From positions 68,325 to 132,324 of the forward strand of contig JBDRRS010000013.1 in NCBI GenBank assembly GCA_043825615.1: a stretch of DNA of 64,000 nt, in the 5' to 3' direction. Shown here in pieces: positions 1 to 52,167 of this stretch; positions within the stretch are counted from its first letter, which is position 1, and each line of letters begins with the position of its first letter. The translations under genes were made by a program, and so were the position numbers. Origin of the DNA: a bacterium (GTDB lineage Bacteria; CG03). The notes under the pieces were generated by a model that worked only from the letters and a program-made list of their open reading frames with translations, did not search any database and had not been told where the DNA came from.

Positions 1-280
1 CCATTAATTCTTCAGGAGTACAAATTTCAATATTTTTATATTTTAACTTTTGATTTACCTGACGCAATTTTATTCTTACGTGTGCGTTCGTATTACATCC
101 TTTGCCAACTTAGCAGTTAAATAGCTTACCATTGTAGTTTCAATGTATACCTTTTCTTTCATAATTGTAAATATTATACTATTTCCCTAACTTAATTCAA
201 AGCAACACAAGCAGATGTCTTGGTGACGTTACGAGGGAGAGTGTTAAGTTTGTAAAATGTAAAAGTGTAAAAGGGGGCGC

Positions 281-410
281 CTGCTCTTTCTCCATAAGAT
301 ATATCCGGCACTCCTGAAATTGTGGCACGTGCCACAATTTGCCTTTTTTCCGACAAGGCCGTTTTAAGGTGTCCCCTTTTTCGGCTGTTATTCCGGGCAA
401 GATAGCACTC
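281..410. promoter_or_regulatory. conserved ~130-nt non-coding element, copy A (20-nt palindrome ATTGTGGCACGTGCCACAAT at 319..338)
   Basis: ~85% identical to 38582..38710. The palindrome arms differ at 4+4 positions but stay perfectly symmetric around CACGTG. The overlapping 85-aa ORF (197..454) is judged non-coding. Confidence 0.5.
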
Positions 411-571
411 ACTTCGTTCGTCCTTATTTTTCTCAAATATTCAAGACGTCCCATTTTTCCCAGAATTGTCCCCGCTTTTTACAACTCCTCCTTTATTAAC
501 AGCTAACATAAAAAATCAACTGCCCGAACCCGCAGGGTGAGGAACATCTGGATTGCTTTGTTGAAAAGCCG

Positions 572-6841: not shown

Positions 6842-6974
6842 CACACCAACTGCGCAGCAGGCGGCGTTGCCTGACAAGCCCGCTCATCCGCTGTGGCGAA
6901 CGAGTGCGGCGGCGGATGGTGCCCCGCCAGGGCGGACGGGACACTGCCGGAGCCGGACAGGGCGAGGAAATTAC

Positions 6975-7089
6975 AGCGAGCGGTTTTTGGCAAGCGGGGC
7001 TGTGTGAGCGAGGGATTTGCAGAATACCCGTAGCGAACCCAGAGCGAGCTGTTCTCACGTGAGCGTCCCCGCTGTCAAAACCGCGAGCA
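6975..7089. repeat. GC-rich ~115-nt intergenic repeat with imperfect terminal inverted repeats (copy 1 of 2; REP/MITE-like)
   Basis: 'agcgagcggtttttggcaagcgggg ... ccccgctgtcaaaaccgcgagca' is near-identical to 52005..52114. Lies between the 3' ends of convergent genes. Confidence 0.6.
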
Positions 7090-7124
7090 ATAAGGTAATA
7101 GTTCTTGAAGAGAACCGGGAAAAA

Positions 7125-18899: not shown

Positions 18900-21800
18900 T
18901 CAGCGTATTATCGCTAATTTTCCTTTTTTCTTTTCACCTGAATCCTTAGATATTATGTAAAAATACACTCCGCTGGCTACATCCCTTCGACTGTTGTTGC
19001 GGAGGTCCCATACGGCGTCGGTATTCGAATTGTCCTTATTTATCGTCCGCACTAACTCCCCAGTTATCGTATAAATTTTTATTTTTAACGTGTTCGGTAA
19101 GTTTGTAAACGTCACTCCGGTATATCCCATTCCACTCCTCCACGGGTTCGGATAGACGTAAACGTCGTCCGGCGATAAATACGAAAGCTCAATCAAGCTG
19201 TATACCGAGAGGCTCGAAAGTTGGGCTTCTATCCATTTTGCGGAAGTGTTGATATAAAAATCTTCCTGGATAACCCATTCACCTTTATCCTCGTCCAGTT
19301 TTACAATCCTCAGTTTGTTTTCCTGCGCGCGGGTGAGGTCGGCAGGATAATAGAACCTTATGGTAATCGCTCCTGACGGCACATCGGCAAAATCAGTTAT
19401 TTTATTATCAAGCTCGTCCATAATAACATAATTTCTGGACGGCGCCATGACGGGTATTGTCCCGGCCGGGAGTTTGTTTTCCGCCGCTGTTTCCTTATCC
19501 TTCTGTTCCTGCGTCAGTTCCTGAATTTCCATGCGGGTCGGAAAATTAAATGCATCTGCCGAAACTTTAACTACTGAAATTGTATTGCCTGTCGTCCCGT
19601 CTTTAAATTCTTCTTCGTAATCTTCGCCGAGATAGAGTTGATGAAATGTCACGGTTGCAACGGTGCGGTCAAAGTCCGAAGCAATTCCGCCTCCATTGAA
19701 CGCCTGGACTTTATAATAATATGTCGTCGTGGTTTTTATATCTGCGGTATCTGTGTAAGATGTATCCGTATACCCGGAATTAAAATTAGTGATTACATTT
19801 GTTGAAGTTGCAAAATCGTCGGTTGACCTTAAAATTCCCCACCGTGTATATGAAGGATTACCGTTCGGCTCCCAGGTAATTTCTACGGACCACGAACTTC
19901 GAGACAGGATATACGAATTTGCCGGTGGATTTGCAAGCGTCCATCCTGTTGCCGTATTTGACGGATCAGAAAGAATTCCCGACGCTCCCGTTTTTACATA
20001 TCTGTAATATGATGTGTTTGCGGAGAGGTCTGTTTCAATCCAGGTAGTTGTCCCATTCCCTTCCAGCTTTTCAAGAAATTTATTATCGGGAAAACTGTAG
20101 ACCTGGTAAAATGTCGCACCCTGCATTAAATCCCACTCCCATTTGATTGAGCCGGTTGATAGCGCATCACCATAAAGACCCGCCGGCGTATTATACCACT
20201 GCCCGCAATCTCCGCCGTCGGCAATTGTCCAGTTGAATGTATCCTTGATATACTGTCTTTTTTCCGCTGGAAGGCCTAAACTATATTTTGAATTTCCACC
20301 ATTAAAACTTATTCCGCTCTGCAACGGTAATTCCGACCATTTGATTAGAAGCTGATTATAATTTGCAGAAGACAGTTGGACACCATAAAGAAAATCACAA
20401 AAATTTACGACAGATGATACATCCCAACTGCTTATATCCTGATTAAATGAAGTTGCGCCATAGAACACACTATCCATATATCTAACAGATGAAACATCCC
20501 ATCCGCCTATATTCTGATTAAATGAAGTTGCGCCATAGAACATAAAAAACATAGCGGTAACAGAGGACACATCCCAGCTGCTTATATCCTGATTAAATGA
20601 AGTTGCACCAGAGAACACACTATTCATACAACTAACAGATGACACATCCCAATTACCTATATCCTGATTGAATGATGCTGCCCCATAGAACATCTGATAC
20701 ATATTTGTAACAGAGGACACATTCCAGTTGCCTATATCCTGATTGAATGAAGCGGCACCGGAGAACATCTCAGACATATCTGTAACAGACGATACATCCC
20801 AATTCCCTATCGGTCGATTAAATGAAGATGCTTTATAAAACATCCTATCCATATTTGTAACAGACGACACATCCCAATTACCTATATCCTGATTAAATGA
20901 TGTTGCACCCTGAAACATTAGATACATATTTGTAACAGACGATACATCCCAATTCCCTATCGGTTGATTAAATGAATTTGCACCAGAGAACATCCAAGAC
21001 ATATCTGTAACGGATGAAACATCCCAGCCGCCTATATCCTGATTAAATGAAGTTGCAATCTGAAACATTACCTGCATATTTGTAACAGACGATACATCCC
21101 AATTGCCTATAGGTTGATTGAATGAAGGTGCTTTAGAGAACATCCCATACATATCTGTAACAGAGGACACATCCCAGTTGCCTATCGGTTGATTAAACGA
21201 AGTTGCATCATAAAACATATAAGACATATCTCTAACAGACGATACATCCCAGTTGCCTATAGGTTGATTAAATGAAGTTGCGTTAGAGAACATCCAAGAC
21301 ATATCTGTAACAGAGGACACATCCCAGTTGCCTATATCCTGATTAAATGAAGATTCGTTATAGTTATAAAACATACAAGACATATCTGTAACAGATGATA
21401 CATCCCAATTGCCTATAGGTTGATTAAATGAAGTTGCGCGAGAGAACATCCAAGACATATCTGTAACAGATGATACATCCCAATTACTTATATCCTGATT
21501 AAATGAAGTACCAAACATACTAAACATATCCGTAACGGATGACACATCCCAATTACCTATCGGCTGATTAAATGCTGATGAGAACATATTAGACATATCT
21601 ATAACAGACGATACATCCCATCTGCTTATATCCTGATTAAATGAAGCGGCGCCAGGGAACATCAAAGACATATCTGTAACACTGCTGGAAACGGCATCAA
21701 AGAAATCTGCCGCAGTGAATGTTGAGATAGTTGTCGCTCCACAAAACATCTCATGAGCGCTTGTAATCCCTGAAACACCATCTGAAACAGGTGTTAATAT

Positions 21801-22187
21801 GTCAATCAATCGCGAAGGAGTTCCGCTTCCTCCACCATAAAATGAGATCCTGCTTGTCTGCCCTCTGACCTTTATTACATAATCGCTGGCATCCGCATAA
21901 GTGTATGAGAGCAGTTGGCTTGCGCCCGTAACGGGCGAAGAACTTGTTCCCGTTCCCCAGTCAAGAACTTCAAAATTGACAGGGTTGTCAACCCAAAAAG
22001 CAAAATTCTGATTTGCGTCCGTGGTTTTTATCTTGAAATCGAAAGATGACGCAAAGGCGGAAACTGTTGATAAAATCATAGTAGTGCTAAAAATGAAAAA
22101 TATAAGAAAGAGCAATTTTACTTTTATTATAAATTTCTTTTGCTCTAAAATCTTCAAATTCTGCCTCCTTCCAAAATAATATTGCAT
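18900..22187 (-). CDS. giant secreted surface protein: ~20 tandem DUF285-type repeats, FN3-like region, T9SS C-terminal sorting domain
   Basis: 1095 aa with an N-terminal signal peptide. The repeats carry the 'FNQ(D/P)[16 protein letters not shown]' motif. The C-terminal ~80 aa '...VYVYPNPW...[23 protein letters not shown]' resembles a T9SS type-A CTD. The gene is AT-rich. Confidence 0.75.
20330..21710. repeat. ~20 tandem ~69-nt coding repeats (23-aa units) inside the surface-protein gene
   Basis: Near-identical units, e.g. 'gatacatcccaattgcctataggttgattaaatgaag...', are visible at nucleotide level. Confidence 0.8.
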
Positions 22188-22591
22188 ACTTCCTTAATAT
22201 TATTACCGTACAAATTAAAAAAAACAGGGCTACCAAAAATTCAGAGAAGAATATCCCCTTATCTTCGGTAGCCCGGCTAGCGGGTCAGTCAGTTTAATTT
22301 TTGTGCAACTTTACCTTCGGTGTCCTGGCTGGCTTACCCTGCACATATATTGCAGGGGGTAGCCCCGTGGCTTTGCGTCCCCGCCTTTCAGCGGGTTTGC
22401 CTTTATCGGATAAAGCCCAATGTATTCTTTACAATATAAGTATAGTGTGAAAAGCCTTAAATGTCAATTTATCACACATAATTCAAAGTAGGAATGTAAA
22501 TATTTCTGTTGGAACCTGTAAGAAGAATTGTGACTTTGACAAACTTTCTACCTTACAAGTAGACAGGTTTTTTTATTTTTCGGTTTTGTCC

Positions 22592-37701: not shown

Positions 37702-37886
37702 TTTTTTTGATTCTCAGCGGGACAGAATAGCCCTCATTTTGTTCGTCTTTATTTTTCCCTGTAATGGGCCATAAAAACCGCCGCGAAAATTGGTATAAAG
37801 ATTCTCAGGCAGCAAATTATATCTACACAAAATCACCTGCCTGGCGAAGCGGCGACACCGCGTGGAAGGTCAGTCGGATTGGCTTG

Positions 37887-38336
37887 TTAAACTTTATTAT
37901 TTTTTAAATAATCAGCGTCCAATTTATCTTTTTTTCTACCAGTGGATTGTTTATTTTTTATGAGGTTTTCTTTTGAAATAAATGGTATAGATAGGTTTTC
38001 AATTTCTATATTTTCTCTGGATTTGTACGCGTCTTGGAAATTTACTCCGTCAATATGTGTGATAATATCAATGCGCCGGGGTGCTACGCCAATTTGAAAA
38101 ATAATGCCTTTTTTGGTAAATGTATCTTTGGTTATCTCGGAAAGAGGAGCGCCAAATTCAGAAAGAGAGAGATATATTTTTTGGGAATTATTAGCAGATG
38201 CCTCTACCCATATATCAAAATCACCAGTTGCACGCGGATAACCGTATGCACCCATGGCATAAGCACCAACGGTGAGAAATTTCACTTCATTGTTCAATAA
38301 GATTTGTAACATTTCTTTGTAATCTTCGTTCAACAT
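37887..38336 (-). CDS. nucleotidyltransferase-fold protein (minimal NTase; TA/defence-like)
   Basis: 149 aa. 'VGAYAMGAYGYPRATGDFDIWV' is the G[SA]..G..-D.D pol-beta NTase motif. Overlaps the upstream small ORF by 50 nt. Confidence 0.5.
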   Translation of the reverse strand: MLNEDYKEMLQILLNNEVKFLTVGAYAMGAYGYPRATGDFDIWVEASANNSQKIYLSLSEFGAPLSEITKDTFTKKGIIFQIGVAPRRIDIITHIDGVNFQDAYKSRENIEIENLSIPFISKENLIKNKQSTGRKKDKLDADYLKNNKV

Positions 38337-38475
38337 AATTCACTCCTCTGAGCGACCAAATTTCCGCTGTAAGTTCCCACATAAAGGAGACAAGCTCCTT
38401 TGGGGACGCTTCTACAAAGGAATCGTCTTTTTTGGTAAGTTTCTTAAGATTTGCGATTTTTCTTCTTACTTTCAT
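38287..38475 (-). CDS. small ORF co-transcribed with the NTase (putative partner protein)
   Basis: 62 aa. Starts at 'ATGAAAG' 6 nt after a TATAAT, so likely leaderless. No family recognised. Confidence 0.35.
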   Translation of the reverse strand: MKVRRKIANLKKLTKKDDSFVEASPKELVSFMWELTAEIWSLRGVNYVERRLQRNVTNLIEQ

Positions 38476-38581
38476 ATTGATATTATACCATATTTTATCA
38501 ATTTTTCATTTATGTCTAACATTTTTATCATAATTTTCACACAGAAAGCCATAGTTTCAGAATTTTCAGGAATAAATCCAT

Positions 38582-38710
38582 CTGCTTCTTCTCCATAAGA
38601 CATATCTGGCCCTCCTGAAATTATTCCACGTGGAATAATTTGCCTTTTTTCCGACGACGCCGTTTTAAGGGGTACCCTTTTTGGCTGTTATTCCATGTAA
38701 GATTGCCCTC
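38582..38710. promoter_or_regulatory. conserved ~130-nt non-coding element, copy B (20-nt palindrome ATTATTCCACGTGGAATAAT at 38630..38649)
   Basis: ~85% identical to 281..410; the palindrome arms covary around a fixed CACGTG core. Lies upstream of the NTase cassette on the minus strand. Confidence 0.5.
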
Positions 38711-38835: not shown

Positions 38836-39102
38836 TTACGAATAGTGCATAGCGTACTTGCTCAACAATTCGCGTATCATTTTTTGATACTTGGTATGAT
38901 ATTGCCTTGCCACACGCTTGAAAAAATTTACATCTGTTTCCTTCAGGTGGATGGTAACCTTCACGGTTTCTTCCGGCGCAACCAATTCATTAGGCGGGGG
39001 CAGAAAATCTTTAATCCTGGTTAGTTTTCCAAAAGCCCTATCCTTATCAACCGCTTTCTTTTTCATAGTACTCCGCCTCCTTTCTCCAATATCCGGCGCC
39101 AA
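38836..39102 (-). CDS. brnA: BrnA antitoxin (RHH/CopG-like)
   Basis: 88 aa. The C-terminal 'KVTIHLKETDVNFFKRVARQYHTKYQKMIRELLSKY' resembles BrnA. Overlaps brnT. Confidence 0.65.
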   Translation of the reverse strand: MAPDIGERRRSTMKKKAVDKDRAFGKLTRIKDFLPPPNELVAPEETVKVTIHLKETDVNFFKRVARQYHTKYQKMIRELLSKYAMHYS

Positions 39103-39358
39103 ATATCCTGATTTTACCGCGCCGGCAAGTAAATCTAACTGTTAAAATTTTACCTTGGACTTTACCAATGCAGAAAAACCTTTTCTCTTTTTTGCTGTGC
39201 TTTTCATCTATGTAAATCTTCCTTTCTGTATCCTTAAATACCCTGGTGGCCATAGAAAAATCAACGCCGTGCTTGCGAACATTGCTTATCTCTTTTTCAT
39301 TATTCCATATAAAACTGCCAAATTTTTTATCCATACTTTTGTCAGTATAATTATACAT
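39047..39358 (-). CDS. brnT: BrnT toxin (DUF497 ribonuclease)
   Basis: 103 aa. 'FIWNNEKEISNVRKHGVDFSMATRVFKD' is the BrnT N-terminal signature. Confidence 0.7.
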   Translation of the reverse strand: MYNYTDKSMDKKFGSFIWNNEKEISNVRKHGVDFSMATRVFKDTERKIYIDEKHSKKEKRFFCIGKVQGKILTVRFTCRRGKIRIFGAGYWRKEAEYYEKESG

Positions 39359-39586
39359 AAATAATTTGAAATATCAAGGGTTTCTCCCTCCAAGGTATAA
39401 AGCTTTTTGGCAGTTAAAATATTGTTACAGGTTTCAACAAAAAGAGTAAAATACCTTTCCCAAAAAATATGTCACGAAAGCATTCTGTCCGCCGTAGCTT
39501 CAGCGAAGGAGGGTCATCCCCTGGCACCATCACTGCCAATAAATATAAAAACAGGCTAAAATATATAATGCAGACAGAACTTACCT

Positions 39587-40453
39587 GTGAATTGTATACA
39601 GGAGGTATTAAAAATGAATGTAAAAGAAACGGTAGAGAAATTTCTGAACTATGAAAGGGAGCAATCGGTAGCACACACAGTAGCAAATTACAAAAGTATT
39701 CTTTTTCCTTTCTTGAATTTTTTTGAGGAAAAAGACGTTGAGAACCTTACTCCTGAAGATGTCTTCTCTTTTCTAAGCCAACGCACGGATAAGTGCAATA
39801 AGACAACTAAGCATGTAAGATTTACTCAACTTAAAGCGTTCTTCAACTTTTGTAAAGGTGGTCTTGGGTTGAGTATTGTGAATCCCTGTAGCAGTTCACT
39901 TTTTGCTATGGCGTATAGATCACCCAAACTAACTCTGTGCGAGACTATTGCAAAAGAAGTGATTGATGAGCTTATCTTCAGAACTGTGAAATTGAGGAAC
40001 AGACTTCTTTTAGAAATCCAGGCAAGAAGTGGATTGCGGGTTGGTGAAGTTTTAAAACTTAGACCAAGAGACATTGAGGGGAGGAAAATCACTCTGATTT
40101 CACCAAAAAGTGGGCGTGAATTTGAGACTGCATTCTTGCCCAAAGGTGTTAGTGAAAGATTGAATACATATGTTGAGGAAGAAAAGATACAACCAGATGT
40201 GAGAATCTTTCCTTTTACTTATTCCTGCGCAAGGAGTATTGTGCGAAAGGCCGGGGAACTTGTTGGGATTCACCTAAGACCACACGATTTAAGAAGACAC
40301 TCCGCAACTTATGCGAGTAGGAATGGAGTCCCTCTCGAAGTTGTCTCAAAAGTAATCCTCCGTCATCAAGATTTAAGAACCAGTCAGCTTTATCTTGGTA
40401 AAGTCAGTGATGATGAAGCACTCCATTGGATTGATACTTTACATAGTGTCTAA
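39587..40453 (+). CDS. tyrosine site-specific recombinase / integrase (XerD-like)
   Basis: N-terminal SAM-like domain, then the catalytic residues R ('LRVGEV'), H-x-x-R ('HDLRRH') and Y ('SQLYLG'). An alternative start is at 39614. Confidence 0.8.
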   Translation: MNCIQEVLKMNVKETVEKFLNYEREQSVAHTVANYKSILFPFLNFFEEKDVENLTPEDVFSFLSQRTDKCNKTTKHVRFTQLKAFFNFCKGGLGLSIVNPCSSSLFAMAYRSPKLTLCETIAKEVIDELIFRTVKLRNRLLLEIQARSGLRVGEVLKLRPRDIEGRKITLISPKSGREFETAFLPKGVSERLNTYVEEEKIQPDVRIFPFTYSCARSIVRKAGELVGIHLRPHDLRRHSATYASRNGVPLEVVSKVILRHQDLRTSQLYLGKVSDDEALHWIDTLHSV

Positions 40454-51988: not shown

Positions 51989-52004
51989 AATAAGCGCTTA
52001 TAAA

Positions 52005-52114
52005 AGCGAGCGGTTTTTGGCAAGCGGGGGCTGTGTGAGCGAGGGATTTGCAGAATGCCCGTAGCGAACCCAGAGCGAACTTTAAAAGCGTCCCCGCTGG
52101 CAAAACCGCGAGCA
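52005..52114. repeat. GC-rich intergenic repeat, copy 2 (see 6975..7089)
   Basis: Near-identical to copy 1, minus a 15-nt internal segment. Lies between proC and the yggT-like gene. Confidence 0.6.
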
Positions 52115-52167
52115 GTTGGTTACAGCAAAATGCTGTATTAGGAACCGTCCCTAATTTAGGAGGAAAA

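What the first reader, a model, noticed from the sequence alone, without database searches (positions are those of the whole stretch)
281..410. Duplicated ~130-nt non-coding element with a covarying palindrome around a CACGTG core
Positions 281..410 and 38582..38710 align at ~85% identity. The central 20-nt perfect palindrome differs at four positions per arm (ATTGTGGCACGTGCCACAAT versus ATTATTCCACGTGGAATAAT). It remains perfectly symmetric around the invariant CACGTG. Compensatory change of this kind marks a conserved hairpin or a dimeric-protein operator. Both copies lie upstream (minus-strand sense) of TA-like cassettes. The overlapping 85-aa ORF in copy A is not conserved at protein level, so the conservation is nucleotide-level.
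Basis: seen in the sequence. Interest (0 to 1): 0.7.

Follow-up and report, generated by a model that had tools for sequence, protein, structure and literature searches.

The report
Orphan parS-like ParB binding sites
The two repeats are copies of a dispersed DNA module built around a parS-like inverted repeat, the docking site for a family of stand-alone ParB-type DNA-clamp proteins in Elusimicrobiota-like bacteria, and the palindrome stays symmetric while changing because each site variant matches a protein variant with correspondingly changed DNA-reading residues.

Summary
Window 281-410 and 38582-38710 are 109/130 identical. Each holds a perfect 24-bp palindrome, and they differ at 3 (not 4) positions per arm, all compensated.

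It is not an RNA hairpin, MITE or attC. The 16-bp centre is a parS-type site (TGTTNCACGTGNAACA) with one symmetric mismatch per half-site.

I collected 26 distinct copies from metagenomes and from Elusimicrobia/Elusimicrobiota-named or unclassified MAGs. In 13 of them the same leader plus palindrome sits directly upstream of a 261-aa ParB-family gene with no ParA; a 14th ParB-linked site is cut by a contig end.

Eight site classes occur. Over 14 gene-site pairs, the residues equivalent to Caulobacter ParB R173, N178 and R204 track half-site positions 1, 3 and 4. The R-to-G and Q-to-A pairing at position 1 is the rule shown experimentally for ParB versus Noc. Five look-ups were predicted in advance: four fully correct, one half correct.

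The window has no ParB gene, so its two copies are orphan sites. They lie about 120-130 bp upstream of sigma-70-like promoters of small gene cassettes. Two paralogues of the ParB-like family probably sit elsewhere in the same MAG.

Function (loading site and operator for a sliding-clamp regulator) is inferred, not shown.

Verdict: a new variant of a known kind, of moderate interest.

The parts
281..410 (-). Copy A of the dispersed module ('type-2' form, 130 nt). It reads on the minus strand as flank, then leader, then palindrome, then flank.
   Evidence: It is 87% identical over 184 nt to metagenome locus L010.
317..340 (.). Perfect 24-bp inverted repeat of class GTGG. The parS-like 16-mer TGTGGCACGTGCCACA lies at 321-336.
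   Evidence: it matches TGTTNCACGTGNAACA with 2 symmetric mismatches, against a chance expectation of 0.14 per window. The identical 24-mer sits upstream of ParB-like genes in L021 and L039, and a 23-of-24 match (CAATT... arm) in L029.
341..369 (-). Conserved leader adjoining the palindrome. The plus strand reads GCCTTTTTTCCGACAAGGCCGTTTTAAGG; on the gene strand it is CCTTAAAACGGC..GTCGGAAAAAAGGC.
   Evidence: It is nearly invariant and at fixed spacing in 24 of 26 copies. This includes loci found through the protein rather than through the DNA seed.
411..460 (-). Extension of copy A's distal flank. It is shared with L010 but not with copy B.
   Evidence: A_ext 130-310 aligns with L010 2585-2768.
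173..200 (-). Sigma-70-like promoter (TTGAAT-16-TATAAT) downstream of copy A. It precedes a 28-codon ORF that I read as a decayed gene remnant (ATG at 162).
38582..38710 (-). Copy B of the module (129 nt).
   Evidence: A Logan assembly contig breaks inside it at window 38639.
38618..38641 (.). Perfect 24-bp inverted repeat of class ATTC. The parS-like 16-mer TATTCCACGTGGAATA lies at 38622-38637.
   Evidence: The same TTATTCCACGTGGAATAA core is the own-gene site of ParB-like protein P0022 in L038.
38642..38670 (-). Conserved leader of copy B.
38482..38509 (-). Sigma-70-like promoter with an extended -10 (TG-TATAAT). It precedes the overlapping 62-aa and 149-aa gene pair (38287-38475 and 37887-38336).
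37724..37759 (-). Partial third copy of the distal flank only (about the same as window 399-434). It has no palindrome.

Best explanation
Each repeat is an 'orphan' copy of a portable regulatory module.

**What the module is**
- Its core is a parS-type inverted repeat: two 8-12-bp half-sites around CACGTG.
- This is the nucleation site for a dimer of a stand-alone (ParA-less) ParB-family protein.
- The lineage is labelled Elusimicrobia/Elusimicrobiota or unclassified 'bacterium' in source names. It carries several paralogues of this 261-aa protein.
- Each paralogue gene is preceded by leader, palindrome, Shine-Dalgarno sequence and ATG. Further copies of leader plus palindrome are scattered upstream of unrelated genes.

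**Why the palindrome changes symmetrically**
- Site variants are specificity classes.
- Half-site position 1 (G or A) is read by the residue equivalent to Caulobacter ParB R173 (R or Q).
- Position 3 (T or G) goes with the N178 equivalent (N or H).
- Position 4 (T, C or G) goes with the R204 equivalent (M, K or R).
- A homodimer reads both arms, so any change must appear in both.

**Shown here**
- The parS similarity, the gene-site adjacency, the protein family and fold, and the protein-site covariation.

**Inferred by analogy with ParB, Noc and KorB**
- The protein loads at the site as an NTP-dependent clamp and spreads or slides.
- At its own gene it would autoregulate.
- At orphan sites such as the two in the window, it would modulate promoters 120-130 bp downstream on the minus strand.
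- The cognate paralogue for copy B is probably encoded elsewhere in the same MAG (P0017, accession MFH1957536.1).
For: **parS identity**
- The only two matches in 64 kb to TGTTNCACGTGNAACA at 2 or fewer mismatches are the two palindromes. Each has one mismatch per half-site, against a chance expectation of 0.14.

**Adjacency to ParB-like genes**
- A metagenome scan and protein look-ups gave 26 distinct copies.
- 13 of these, plus L037 whose upstream is cut by the contig end, lie 5-6 nt before the Shine-Dalgarno sequence of a 261-aa gene.
- That gene has PF02195 ParB_N (44.6 bits) and PF17762 HTH_ParB (96 bits).
- Every ParB-like gene with upstream sequence available has the site.

**Protein family**
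- The best PDB sequence hits are Noc and ParB (E = 1e-30 to 1e-26).
- The AF2 model (pLDDT 77.7) matches Noc 7nfu and ParB-parS 6t1f (TM 0.81). Its DNA-binding domain matches Noc-NBS 6y93 (TM 0.88-0.90), and it also matches KorB 8qa9.
- No ParA gene is adjacent, and no ParA-binding motif is present.

**Protein-site covariation over 14 pairs**

| Half-site position | Base with residue | Count |
|---|---|---|
| 1 | G with R | 6/6 |
| 1 | A with Q | 7/8 |
| 3 | T with N | 4/4 |
| 3 | G with H | 9/10 |
| 4 | T with M | 4/4 |
| 4 | C with K | 6/6 |
| 4 | G with R | 4/4 |

- The site classes are scattered over a tree built with those columns masked, so shared ancestry does not explain the match.
- R173 contacting guanine 1 and Q contacting adenine 1 is the experimentally shown ParB/Noc rule (PMC7383237).

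**Predictions written down before the look-ups**
- P0012, P0006, P0016 and P0008 were fully confirmed. P0022 was confirmed at position 4 only.

**Signature of a double-stranded DNA site**
- The palindromy runs through the centre, and 24 of 26 sites are perfect.

**Same-MAG paralogues**
- Window proteins are MFH1957724, MFH1957756 and MFH1957757.
- ParB-like P0017 is MFH1957536 and P0010 is MFH1957225.
- P0017 shares its specificity residues (SR/AN/KV) with P0022, whose own site equals copy B.
Against: - No binding, transcription or CTP data exist. Function at the orphan sites is by analogy only.
- The window encodes no ParB-like protein.
- No paralogue of the class expected for copy A (R at 173, H at 178, R at 204) was found among the proteins that seem to belong to this MAG.
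- Assigning P0017 and P0010 to the same MAG rests only on neighbouring accession numbers.
- One of 14 pairs breaks the position-1 rule (L038) and one breaks the position-3 rule (L028).
- The promoter of the ParB-like genes was not identified; the two-hexamer scan found none.
- The strongly conserved 30-nt leader is unexplained by ParB binding alone.
- Part of the leader's apparent invariance is imposed by the 19-mer used to find loci L008-L027.
- The Glu of the GERR box is His (GHRR) in this family, so nucleotide hydrolysis may differ from canonical ParB.
Confidence: 0.78

Rival explanations
1. The identity is the same (parS-like ParB sites), but the two window copies are non-functional relics left when ParB-like cassettes decayed or moved. 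They regulate nothing today.
For: - No ParB-like gene is in the window.
- L016 shows a module followed by a ParB gene truncated to 31 codons, and truncated paralogues exist (P0021, P0024, P0025).
- Two orphan copies elsewhere have lost perfect symmetry (L031 4635 and L034 3532).
- A flank-only fragment lies at 37724-37759.
- The ORF downstream of copy A is a 28-codon stub.
Against: - Both window palindromes are perfect over 24 bp, while the surrounding 106 nt have diverged about 14%.
- The leader is intact in both copies.
- Copy B's class has a plausible cognate paralogue in what appears to be the same MAG.
- Orphan copies elsewhere sit at regular positions upstream of intact genes: Fic, an AAA_14/DUF4143 ATPase and a methyltransferase.
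Confidence: 0.25
2. The element acts as RNA. The palindrome would be a conserved hairpin in a 5' leader or small RNA on the minus strand, or an intrinsic terminator on the plus strand (hairpin followed by GCCTTTTTT).
For: - Compensatory changes keep the stem.
- The pattern scan calls a terminator-like site on the plus strand at 317-340 with its T-run, and likewise in L039 and L035.
- In ParB-linked copies the palindrome probably lies in the 5' UTR, next to the Shine-Dalgarno sequence.
Against: - The would-be loop (the centre of CACGTG) is itself always self-complementary, which an RNA hairpin does not require.
- G-U pairs are essentially absent.
- Whole-element folds are not better than shuffles (z = -0.3 to -1.8).
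- Only the palindrome shows covariation, and there is no Rfam match.
- The terminator pattern is not called in copy B, and it would point antisense to all associated genes.
- An RNA model does not predict that arm bases track the HTH residues of the neighbouring protein.
Confidence: 0.07
3. The two sites are ordinary chromosomal centromeres (parS) used by the organism's canonical ParABS system for chromosome segregation.
For: - Each 16-mer is within 2 mismatches of the canonical parS.
- Two sites 38 kb apart resemble an origin-proximal parS cluster.
- Canonical-length ParB homologues (313-316 aa, about 30% identity) exist in the database (P0026-P0028).
Against: - The two sites differ from each other at 3 positions per half-site. 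They belong to classes that, elsewhere, pair with distinct orphan paralogues.
- None of the 28 sites seen is of the GTTN class, which is the canonical parS half-site.
- No parA or parB gene is in the window.
- The sites are embedded in a conserved module that elsewhere precedes the orphan ParB-like gene.
Confidence: 0.08
4. The element is a recombination or mobility site: an integron attC, a Xer/dif-like core site for the nearby tyrosine recombinase (39587-40453), or the end of an IS or MITE.
For: - The layout of 9-bp arms around a 6-bp centre resembles a tyrosine-recombinase core site.
- A XerA-like recombinase lies 0.9 kb from copy B, next to small cassettes.
- The element is dispersed, and an assembly breaks inside it.
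- Sub-repeats AAGA.ATATC.GGC.CTC and AAGAT.GC.CTC occur in each copy.
Against: - The recombinase scores 37 bits against a cutoff of 265 for integron integrase.
- The element's ends do not pair and lack the R''/R' boxes (sequence).
- No recombinase is called near any of the loci for which gene calls with Pfam annotation were returned.
- There are no terminal inverted repeats or target-site duplications at the boundaries.
- There is no match in plasmid, phage or viral collections.
Confidence: 0.04

Closest known systems
Chromosomal ParB (Spo0J) and parS centromeres
   Same: - The site is a 16-bp inverted repeat with a CACGTG centre, and positions 2 and 5-7 are identical.
- The protein has the ParB N-terminal NTPase fold, the ParB HTH domain, and a C-terminal beta-beta-alpha segment that was modelled with low confidence.
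- G201 is kept, which fits adenine at position 6.
   Different: - There is no ParA partner and no ParA-binding peptide.
- Several paralogues occur, including two in tandem on one contig (L021).
- There are eight site classes, and none is the canonical GTTN.
- Residues that are invariant DNA contacts in ParB and Noc (N178, R204; PMC7383237) vary here together with the site.
- Each gene carries its site immediately upstream of its own start.
- The sites come packaged with a conserved leader.
Noc and its NBS sites (Firmicutes)
   Same: - It is an orphan ParB paralogue with switched DNA specificity.
- R173Q goes with G-to-A at half-site position 1, the same pairing seen here (PMC7383237).
- Noc is the best PDB match (34% identity).
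   Different: - The NBS centre is CCCGGG, whereas here it stays CACGTG.
- Noc has an N-terminal membrane-targeting helix, whereas these proteins start at the first strand of the ParB fold.
- Noc is a single paralogue with one site class.
KorB and its OB operators on plasmid RK2 (with KorA), and ParB-like regulators VirB and BisD
   Same: These are ParB-family CTP-dependent clamps that load at short palindromic operators placed upstream of promoters. They regulate transcription, some at a distance (PMC11790492, PMC10770331, PMC12409273). KorB appears among the structural matches.
   Different: - Those proteins are plasmid- or ICE-borne, each with a single specificity.
- The operator sequences are unrelated.
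- KorB works with a clamp-locking partner. No partner is identified here, although the invariant leader could be a partner's site (speculation).
Replicon-specific ParB/parS families in multi-replicon Burkholderiales (Bsr systems)
   Same: Closely related ParB proteins coexist in one genome, each discriminating its own parS variant by a few base positions (PMC5450999).
   Different: - Those are complete ParABS systems, one per replicon, used for segregation.
- Here the paralogues lack ParA and sit in chromosomal contexts (two in tandem in L021), and their sites are spread upstream of assorted genes.
'Orphan ParB' proteins from the survey of the ParB-CTPase fold
   Same: These are defined as ParB homologues outside a parAB operon that lack the (L/F/I)G(K/R)G(L/F/I) motif, and they are reported as widespread (PMC12704722). 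The proteins here fit that definition.
   Different: That survey's text mentions neither paralogues nor Elusimicrobia (zero occurrences of either term). I saw no description there of cognate sites or specificity classes for such orphans.

Membership tests
parS-type ParB binding site | A 16-bp inverted repeat matching TGTTNCACGTGNAACA | tested here: met
   both palindromes match with 2 symmetric mismatches. They are the only matches in the window, against a chance expectation of 0.14.
parS-type ParB binding site | Specifically bound by a ParB-family dimer | not testable with these tools
   The support is indirect. The site sits upstream of every ParB-like gene examined. The arm bases covary with the residues equivalent to 173, 178 and 204.
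parS-type ParB binding site | Association with a parAB operon or an origin-proximal location | tested here: not met
   There is no ParA or ParB gene in the window. No ParA gene lies next to any ParB-like gene in the loci. The position of the origin is unknown.
ParB-CTPase family (the cognate protein, encoded outside the window) | ParB N-terminal domain plus ParB HTH domain, with the ParB/Noc fold | tested here: met
   PF02195 scores 44.6 bits (cutoff 26.3) and PF17762 scores 96 bits (cutoff 22.6). PDB sequence hits reach E = 1e-30. Foldseek gives probability 1.00 to Noc, ParB and KorB.
ParB-CTPase family (the cognate protein, encoded outside the window) | Nucleotide-binding boxes (Q..R box I, GERR box II, EN box III) | tested here: inconclusive
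   Q17, R19, G57, R59, R60, E92 and N93 are conserved (invariant or >=90%) across the family and three canonical ParBs. However, box II reads GHRR rather than GERR. Nucleotide binding was not tested.
Canonical segregation ParB | N-terminal ParA-binding motif (L/F/I)G(K/R)G(L/F/I) and an adjacent parA gene | tested here: not met
   The motif is absent from all 14 proteins, and there is no ParA neighbour.
Known RNA family (Rfam 15) | Covariance-model match at or near the gathering score | tested here: not met
   There is no hit at the element at the gathering threshold or at E of 1-5 or below.
Integron attC site | R''/L''...L'/R' architecture with paired ends, GTTRRRY at the 3' end, and an IntI nearby | tested here: not met
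   The ends do not pair, and there is no GTTRRRY (sequence). The neighbouring recombinase scores 37 bits against a cutoff of 265 for TIGR02249.
MITE or IS terminus | Terminal inverted repeats, target-site duplication, and similarity to a transposase-bearing parent | tested here: not met
   There are no terminal inverted repeats or duplications at the aligned boundaries. There are no matches in plasmids, phages or viral contigs.
Rho-independent terminator | GC-rich stem-loop followed by a T-run, downstream of a gene on the same strand | tested here: inconclusive
   The pattern is called for copy A on the plus strand but not for copy B. No plus-strand gene ends upstream of either copy.

The most novel reading that the evidence does not exclude
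These bacteria run a network of mutually orthogonal ParB-type clamp regulators.

- There are at least eight site classes. They are generated by switching three DNA-reading residues, two of which (N178 and R204) are invariant in all studied ParB and Noc proteins.
- Each paralogue autoregulates through a parS-like operator at its own start.
- Each paralogue also controls further genes, many of them accessory, defence or toxin-like. It does so through portable copies of a leader-plus-operator module.
- The invariant 30-nt leader serves as the site of a shared partner (KorA-like) or as a dedicated promoter.
- The site classes avoid the canonical parS, which insulates the network from chromosome segregation.
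- The two window repeats would then be two nodes of this network, belonging to two different regulators.
Probability: 0.35. Interest if true: 0.75.

Novelty: new variant of a known kind. Interest (0 to 1): 0.55.

Why it matters
- **A natural test of specificity evolution.** ParB/parS is the textbook bacterial centromere, and ParB-versus-Noc is the best-studied case of how a DNA-binding specificity evolves. This family offers a natural series of closely related paralogues (62-96% identical). Their sites differ at three half-site positions and their recognition residues differ in step.
  - It reuses the known R173/Q rule.
  - It adds two positions thought to be fixed.
  - It gives directly testable protein-site pairs for specificity-switching experiments.
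  - It is a possible source of orthogonal ParB/parS pairs for DNA-labelling tools.
- **A possible chromosomal regulon.** Stand-alone ParB clamps may be used as a multi-member regulatory family on a chromosome, not only on plasmids and ICEs.
- **A lesson for scans of this kind.** Symmetric "covariation" in a perfect palindrome that runs through its centre points to a dimeric DNA-binding protein, not to RNA structure.

Tried and rejected
- **Genome-contig scan** with the 19-mer AATTTGCCTTTTTTCCGAC: only chance hits in Methanosarcina, Desulfobacteraceae and Lachnospiraceae.
- **Rfam** at gathering and permissive thresholds: nothing at the element.
- **Single-strand folding** of both strands as RNA and DNA: only the palindrome and a weak second stem, with z-scores not significant.
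- **RNAalifold** on 13 ParB-linked leaders: no covariation outside the palindrome.
- **attC / integron idea:** raised by the integrase-plus-cassette layout at copy B, and rejected. The integrase is XerA-like, not IntI, and the element's ends do not pair.
- **Sigma-54 promoter idea** (TGGCAC...TTGC inside copy A's palindrome): rejected on spacing, and because the other classes lack the GG (sequence).
- **Promoter of the ParB-like genes:** the two-hexamer scan found none. A TGCTAAAAT extended -10-like motif about 45 nt upstream of the leader occurs in roughly half of the copies, which is only suggestive.
- **Pfam and NCBIfam** on the cassettes downstream of both copies, and a BLASTP of the 149-aa protein against an L021 neighbour: no hits.
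- **Plasmid, phage and viral collections:** no match.
- **P0017 look-up:** this paralogue probably belongs to the window's MAG, but its contig is not on record, so its own upstream site could not be read.
- **Circular-cassette reading** of copy B plus the 37724-37759 fragment (an attL/attR-like split): considered, but a simple degenerate third copy explains it equally well. Left open.
Full report
**1. The observation**

Window 281-410 and 38582-38710 are direct repeats, 109/130 identical with one 1-nt indel. Within-window blastn gives E = 1e-33. Homology stops abruptly on both sides. Each copy holds a perfect 24-bp palindrome:
- AAATTGTGGCACGTGCCACAATTT at 317-340
- AAATTATTCCACGTGGAATAATTT at 38618-38641

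All six changes are complementary.

The 85-aa ORF over copy A has no counterpart in B. No gene is called there on an independent Logan assembly. In the one frame open in both copies, 10 nucleotide changes give 7 amino-acid changes.

**2. First hypotheses that failed**

- Rfam finds nothing at the element.
- Folding either strand as RNA or DNA gives only the palindrome and a weak second stem, with overall energies no better than shuffles.
- Copy B lies between a BrnT/BrnA-like pair with a tyrosine recombinase (38836-40453) and a small two-gene cassette. That layout suggested an integron.
- The recombinase is XerA-like, scoring 37 bits against a cutoff of 265 for integron integrase.
- The element's ends do not pair as an attC would.
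- There are no terminal inverted repeats or target-site duplications.

**3. More copies**

A scan of GTDB genomes with the longest invariant 19-mer gave only chance hits. The same 19-mer in JGI/NCBI metagenome contigs gave 13 true copies on 11 contigs. One of these (L013) is the same sequence as window copy B.

All 13 have a perfect palindrome of the form AAATT[G/A]T[G/T][G/C/T]CACGTG...AATTT, in six variants.

In five of these copies, plus one followed by a truncated remnant, the minus-strand side of the palindrome is followed after 5-6 nt by a Shine-Dalgarno sequence and the ATG of a conserved gene, MQLKKVRVNDIITAKYQMR....

**4. The gene is a stand-alone ParB**

- The 261-aa product has PF02195 (ParB_N) and PF17762 (HTH_ParB).
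- Its best PDB relatives by sequence are Noc and ParB/Spo0J (E = 1e-30 to 1e-26).
- An AF2 model (pLDDT 77.7) matches several solved structures:
  - Noc 7nfu
  - Myxococcus ParB
  - Caulobacter ParB-parS 6t1f (TM 0.81)
  - Noc-NBS 6y93, for the DNA-binding domain (TM 0.88-0.90)
  - KorB 8qa9
- The family is small and tight: about 25 database members at 62-100% identity, with the next relatives at about 30%.
- Some members are labelled "Elusimicrobia bacterium" or "Elusimicrobiota bacterium" by their source.
- None has a ParA neighbour or the ParA-binding motif.
- These are therefore "orphan ParBs" in the sense of PMC12704722.
- L021 carries two paralogues in tandem, each behind its own palindrome variant.

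**5. The palindrome is a parS-type site**

The canonical parS TGTTNCACGTGNAACA matches the window only at 321-336 and 38622-38637. Each match has one mismatch per half-site, against a chance expectation of 0.14.

I number the half-site as in PMC7383237, so that G1 T2 T3 T4 C5 A6 C7 is the canonical parS. In this family positions 2 and 5-7 are fixed, while positions 1 (G/A), 3 (T/G) and 4 (T/C/G) vary.

**6. Protein-site covariation**

For 14 gene-site pairs I tabulated the residues equivalent to Caulobacter ParB 173, 178 and 204. Equivalence was assigned through the GK/R-S-R...N...LRLL and GHAR motifs and through the alignment to Noc and ParB.

| Half-site position | Base with residue | Count |
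|---|---|---|
| 1 | G with R | 6/6 |
| 1 | A with Q | 7/8 |
| 3 | T with N | 4/4 |
| 3 | G with H | 9/10 |
| 4 | T with M | 4/4 |
| 4 | C with K | 6/6 |
| 4 | G with R | 4/4 |

- A neighbour-joining tree built with those columns masked scatters the classes: GTGG and ATGC each fall in three separate lineages. Shared ancestry therefore does not explain the match.
- The position-1 rule is the one established experimentally. R173 hydrogen-bonds guanine 1 of parS, and Q contacts adenine 1 of NBS (PMC7383237).
- N178 and R204 are described there as conserved contacts in both ParB and Noc. Here they vary with the site.
- I wrote down predictions for five further paralogues before fetching their DNA:

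| Paralogue | Predicted | Found | Outcome |
|---|---|---|---|
| P0012 | AT?C | ATTC | correct |
| P0006 | AT?G | ATGG | correct |
| P0016 | AT?C | ATGC | correct |
| P0008 | GTGG | GTGG | correct |
| P0022 | GT?C | ATTC | position 4 right, position 1 wrong |

**7. Symmetry statistics and DNA versus RNA**

- On 26 distinct copies, 98.7% of arm cells are complementary.
- Five of 12 pairs show double changes (37 cells), and 0 of 500 shuffles reach the observed score. Sliding the partner by one column drops pairing to 34-40%.
- The symmetry includes the central CACGTG, which would be the loop of a hairpin.
- G-T occurs internally only in two orphan copies that have lost one arm base.
- RNAalifold on 13 ParB-linked leaders finds compensatory change only in the palindrome.
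- This is the signature of a dyad-symmetric duplex site read by a homodimer.

**8. The module around the site**

Upstream of the palindrome on the gene strand lies CCTTAAAACGGCGTCGTCGG[A/G]AAAAAGGC, with no indel relative to the palindrome in 25 of 26 copies.

One caveat applies. Loci L008-L027 were found with a 19-mer inside this leader, so its invariance there is partly imposed. However, loci found through the protein (L028-L039) also carry it. It degrades only in the most divergent members, L032 and L038.

I could not assign the leader a function:
- No two-hexamer sigma-70 promoter is found there.
- The sigma-54 spacing does not fit.
- No RNA covariation is seen.

**9. Orphan copies**

Twelve of the 26 copies have no ParB gene behind them. 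They sit upstream of unrelated genes:
- Fic (L028)
- an AAA_14/DUF4143 ATPase (L037)
- a methyltransferase (L034)
- rpsO-pnp (L020)
- an ABC-F ATPase (L008)

An orphan's class can differ from that of the ParB gene next to it (L028, L037). Several classes must therefore coexist in one genome.

The window's two copies, together with L010 and partly L031, form a subtype with extra conserved flanks, which gives the 130-nt unit. A flank-only fragment lies at 37724-37759.

**10. The window copies in context**

- There is no ParB-like gene in the 64 kb.
- On the minus strand, copy A follows an Mrr-type endonuclease gene (572-1444).
- Copy A lies 128 nt upstream of a TTGAAT-16-TATAAT promoter (200-173). 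That promoter precedes a 28-codon ORF that I read as a decayed gene remnant.
- Copy B follows the BrnT/BrnA-like pair.
- Copy B lies 120 nt upstream of an extended -10 promoter (38509-38482). That promoter precedes an overlapping 62-aa and 149-aa gene pair with no family hits.
- The window comes from an NCBI MAG: proteins MFH1957724, MFH1957756 and MFH1957757 on a 266-kb contig.
- Two ParB-like paralogues have accessions in the same block: P0017 = MFH1957536 and P0010 = MFH1957225. They are probably from the same MAG, but this is an inference.
- P0017 has the same specificity residues (SR/AN/KV) as P0022, whose own site is TTATTCCACGTGGAATAA, the same as copy B.
- No paralogue of the class expected for copy A was seen among these.

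**11. Mechanism**

*Shown here:* site identity, adjacency to the gene, protein family and fold, and covariation at DNA-contact residues.

*Inferred from ParB, Noc and KorB biology* (PMC7383237, PMC11790492, PMC7053999):
- A dimer nucleates on the palindrome.
- Its N-terminal NTPase domain closes into a clamp that slides or spreads.
- It represses its own gene, because the site abuts the Shine-Dalgarno sequence.
- It influences promoters near orphan sites.

The box II Glu is His in this family (GHRR). From my own recollection, not a tool result, mutating this Glu in Myxococcus ParB abolishes CTP hydrolysis. Clamp lifetime may therefore differ here.

**12. Novelty and score**

Already known:
- parS sites
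- orphan ParBs
- the ParB/Noc specificity switch
- ParB-type regulators (KorB, VirB, BisD)
- coexisting discriminating ParB/parS families (PMC5450999)

Not found described:
- A radiation of ParA-less paralogues, two of them in tandem on one contig and several classes sharing contigs, with at least eight site classes.
- Switching at residues 178 and 204 as well as 173.
- Site copies dispersed as a leader-plus-operator module.
- No site of the canonical parS class among the 28 seen. About 3.5 would be expected from the position frequencies; this is suggestive only.

I rate it a new variant of a known kind, with interest 0.55.

Noticed in passing
window 6970-7092 and 52000-52116: A second dispersed repeat, unrelated to the finding, about 96% identical over the first 80 nt. 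It has a long closing stem (GCGAGCGGTTTTTGGCAAGCGGGG ... CCCCGCTGNCAAAACCGCGAGC). RNA folds give z = -3.5 and -2.7, and there is no Rfam hit at gathering. It could be a structured small RNA or a MITE-like element.
   Followed up: partly
window 22263-22410 (-) and 18900-22187 (-): A c-di-GMP-I-GGC riboswitch (67 bits, gathering score 59) lies about 75 nt upstream of a 1095-aa ORF. That ORF contains about 17 tandem 75-nt (25-aa) repeats at 20328-21681.
   Followed up: partly
window 37724-37759: A flank-only fragment of the type-2 module (AGAATAGCCCTCATTTTGTTCGTCTTTATTTTTCCC, about the same as window 399-434), with no palindrome. Together with the AAGAT.GC.CTC motif at the end of copy B, it brackets the 62-aa and 149-aa cassette. 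It is either a degenerate third copy or a trace of cassette insertion.
   Followed up: partly
window 296-313 / 399-410 and 38597-38614 / 38699-38710: Each copy contains two related motifs, AAGA.ATATC.GGC.CTC and AAGAT.GC.CTC. The same base differs between copies A and B in both motifs (GCACTC vs GCCCTC). This is unexplained.
   Followed up: no
all module copies; window 341-369 and 38642-38670: A 30-nt leader next to the palindrome (gene strand CCTTAAAACGGCGTCGTCGG[A/G]AAAAAGGC) appears more conserved than the rest of the module. It has fixed spacing and no assigned function: no promoter, no RNA covariation.
   Followed up: partly
L021 3008-5108: Two ParB-like paralogues (85% identical) lie in tandem, each with its own site class (ATTT and GTGG). 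They are flanked by Holliday-junction-resolvase-like endonucleases, a Schlafen/AlbA_2 protein and an HATPase-STAS protein.
   Followed up: yes
L009, about 100 nt upstream of its module: AATTGTGTCAC-CAGTG-GTGACACAATT has the same half-sites as the GTGT class but with 5 bp inserted at the centre.
   Followed up: no
L031 4635 and L034 3532: These orphan copies have lost one arm base (ACGTAAT instead of ACATAAT, and a GTGT/GCAC hybrid). This shows that the symmetry does decay in some copies.
   Followed up: yes
window 38639 (end of Logan contig SRR26275509_2617): An independent short-read assembly breaks in the middle of copy B, as expected for a multi-copy repeat in that genome.
   Followed up: no
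window 38836-40453 and 2657-2730: BrnT (PF04365) with a BrnA-like partner lies next to a XerA-like tyrosine recombinase (best NCBIfam match NF040815, 105 bits, below its cutoff). A tRNA-Val lies 1.2 kb from the Mrr gene near copy A. This looks like accessory-island context, and I found no link to the module.
   Followed up: partly
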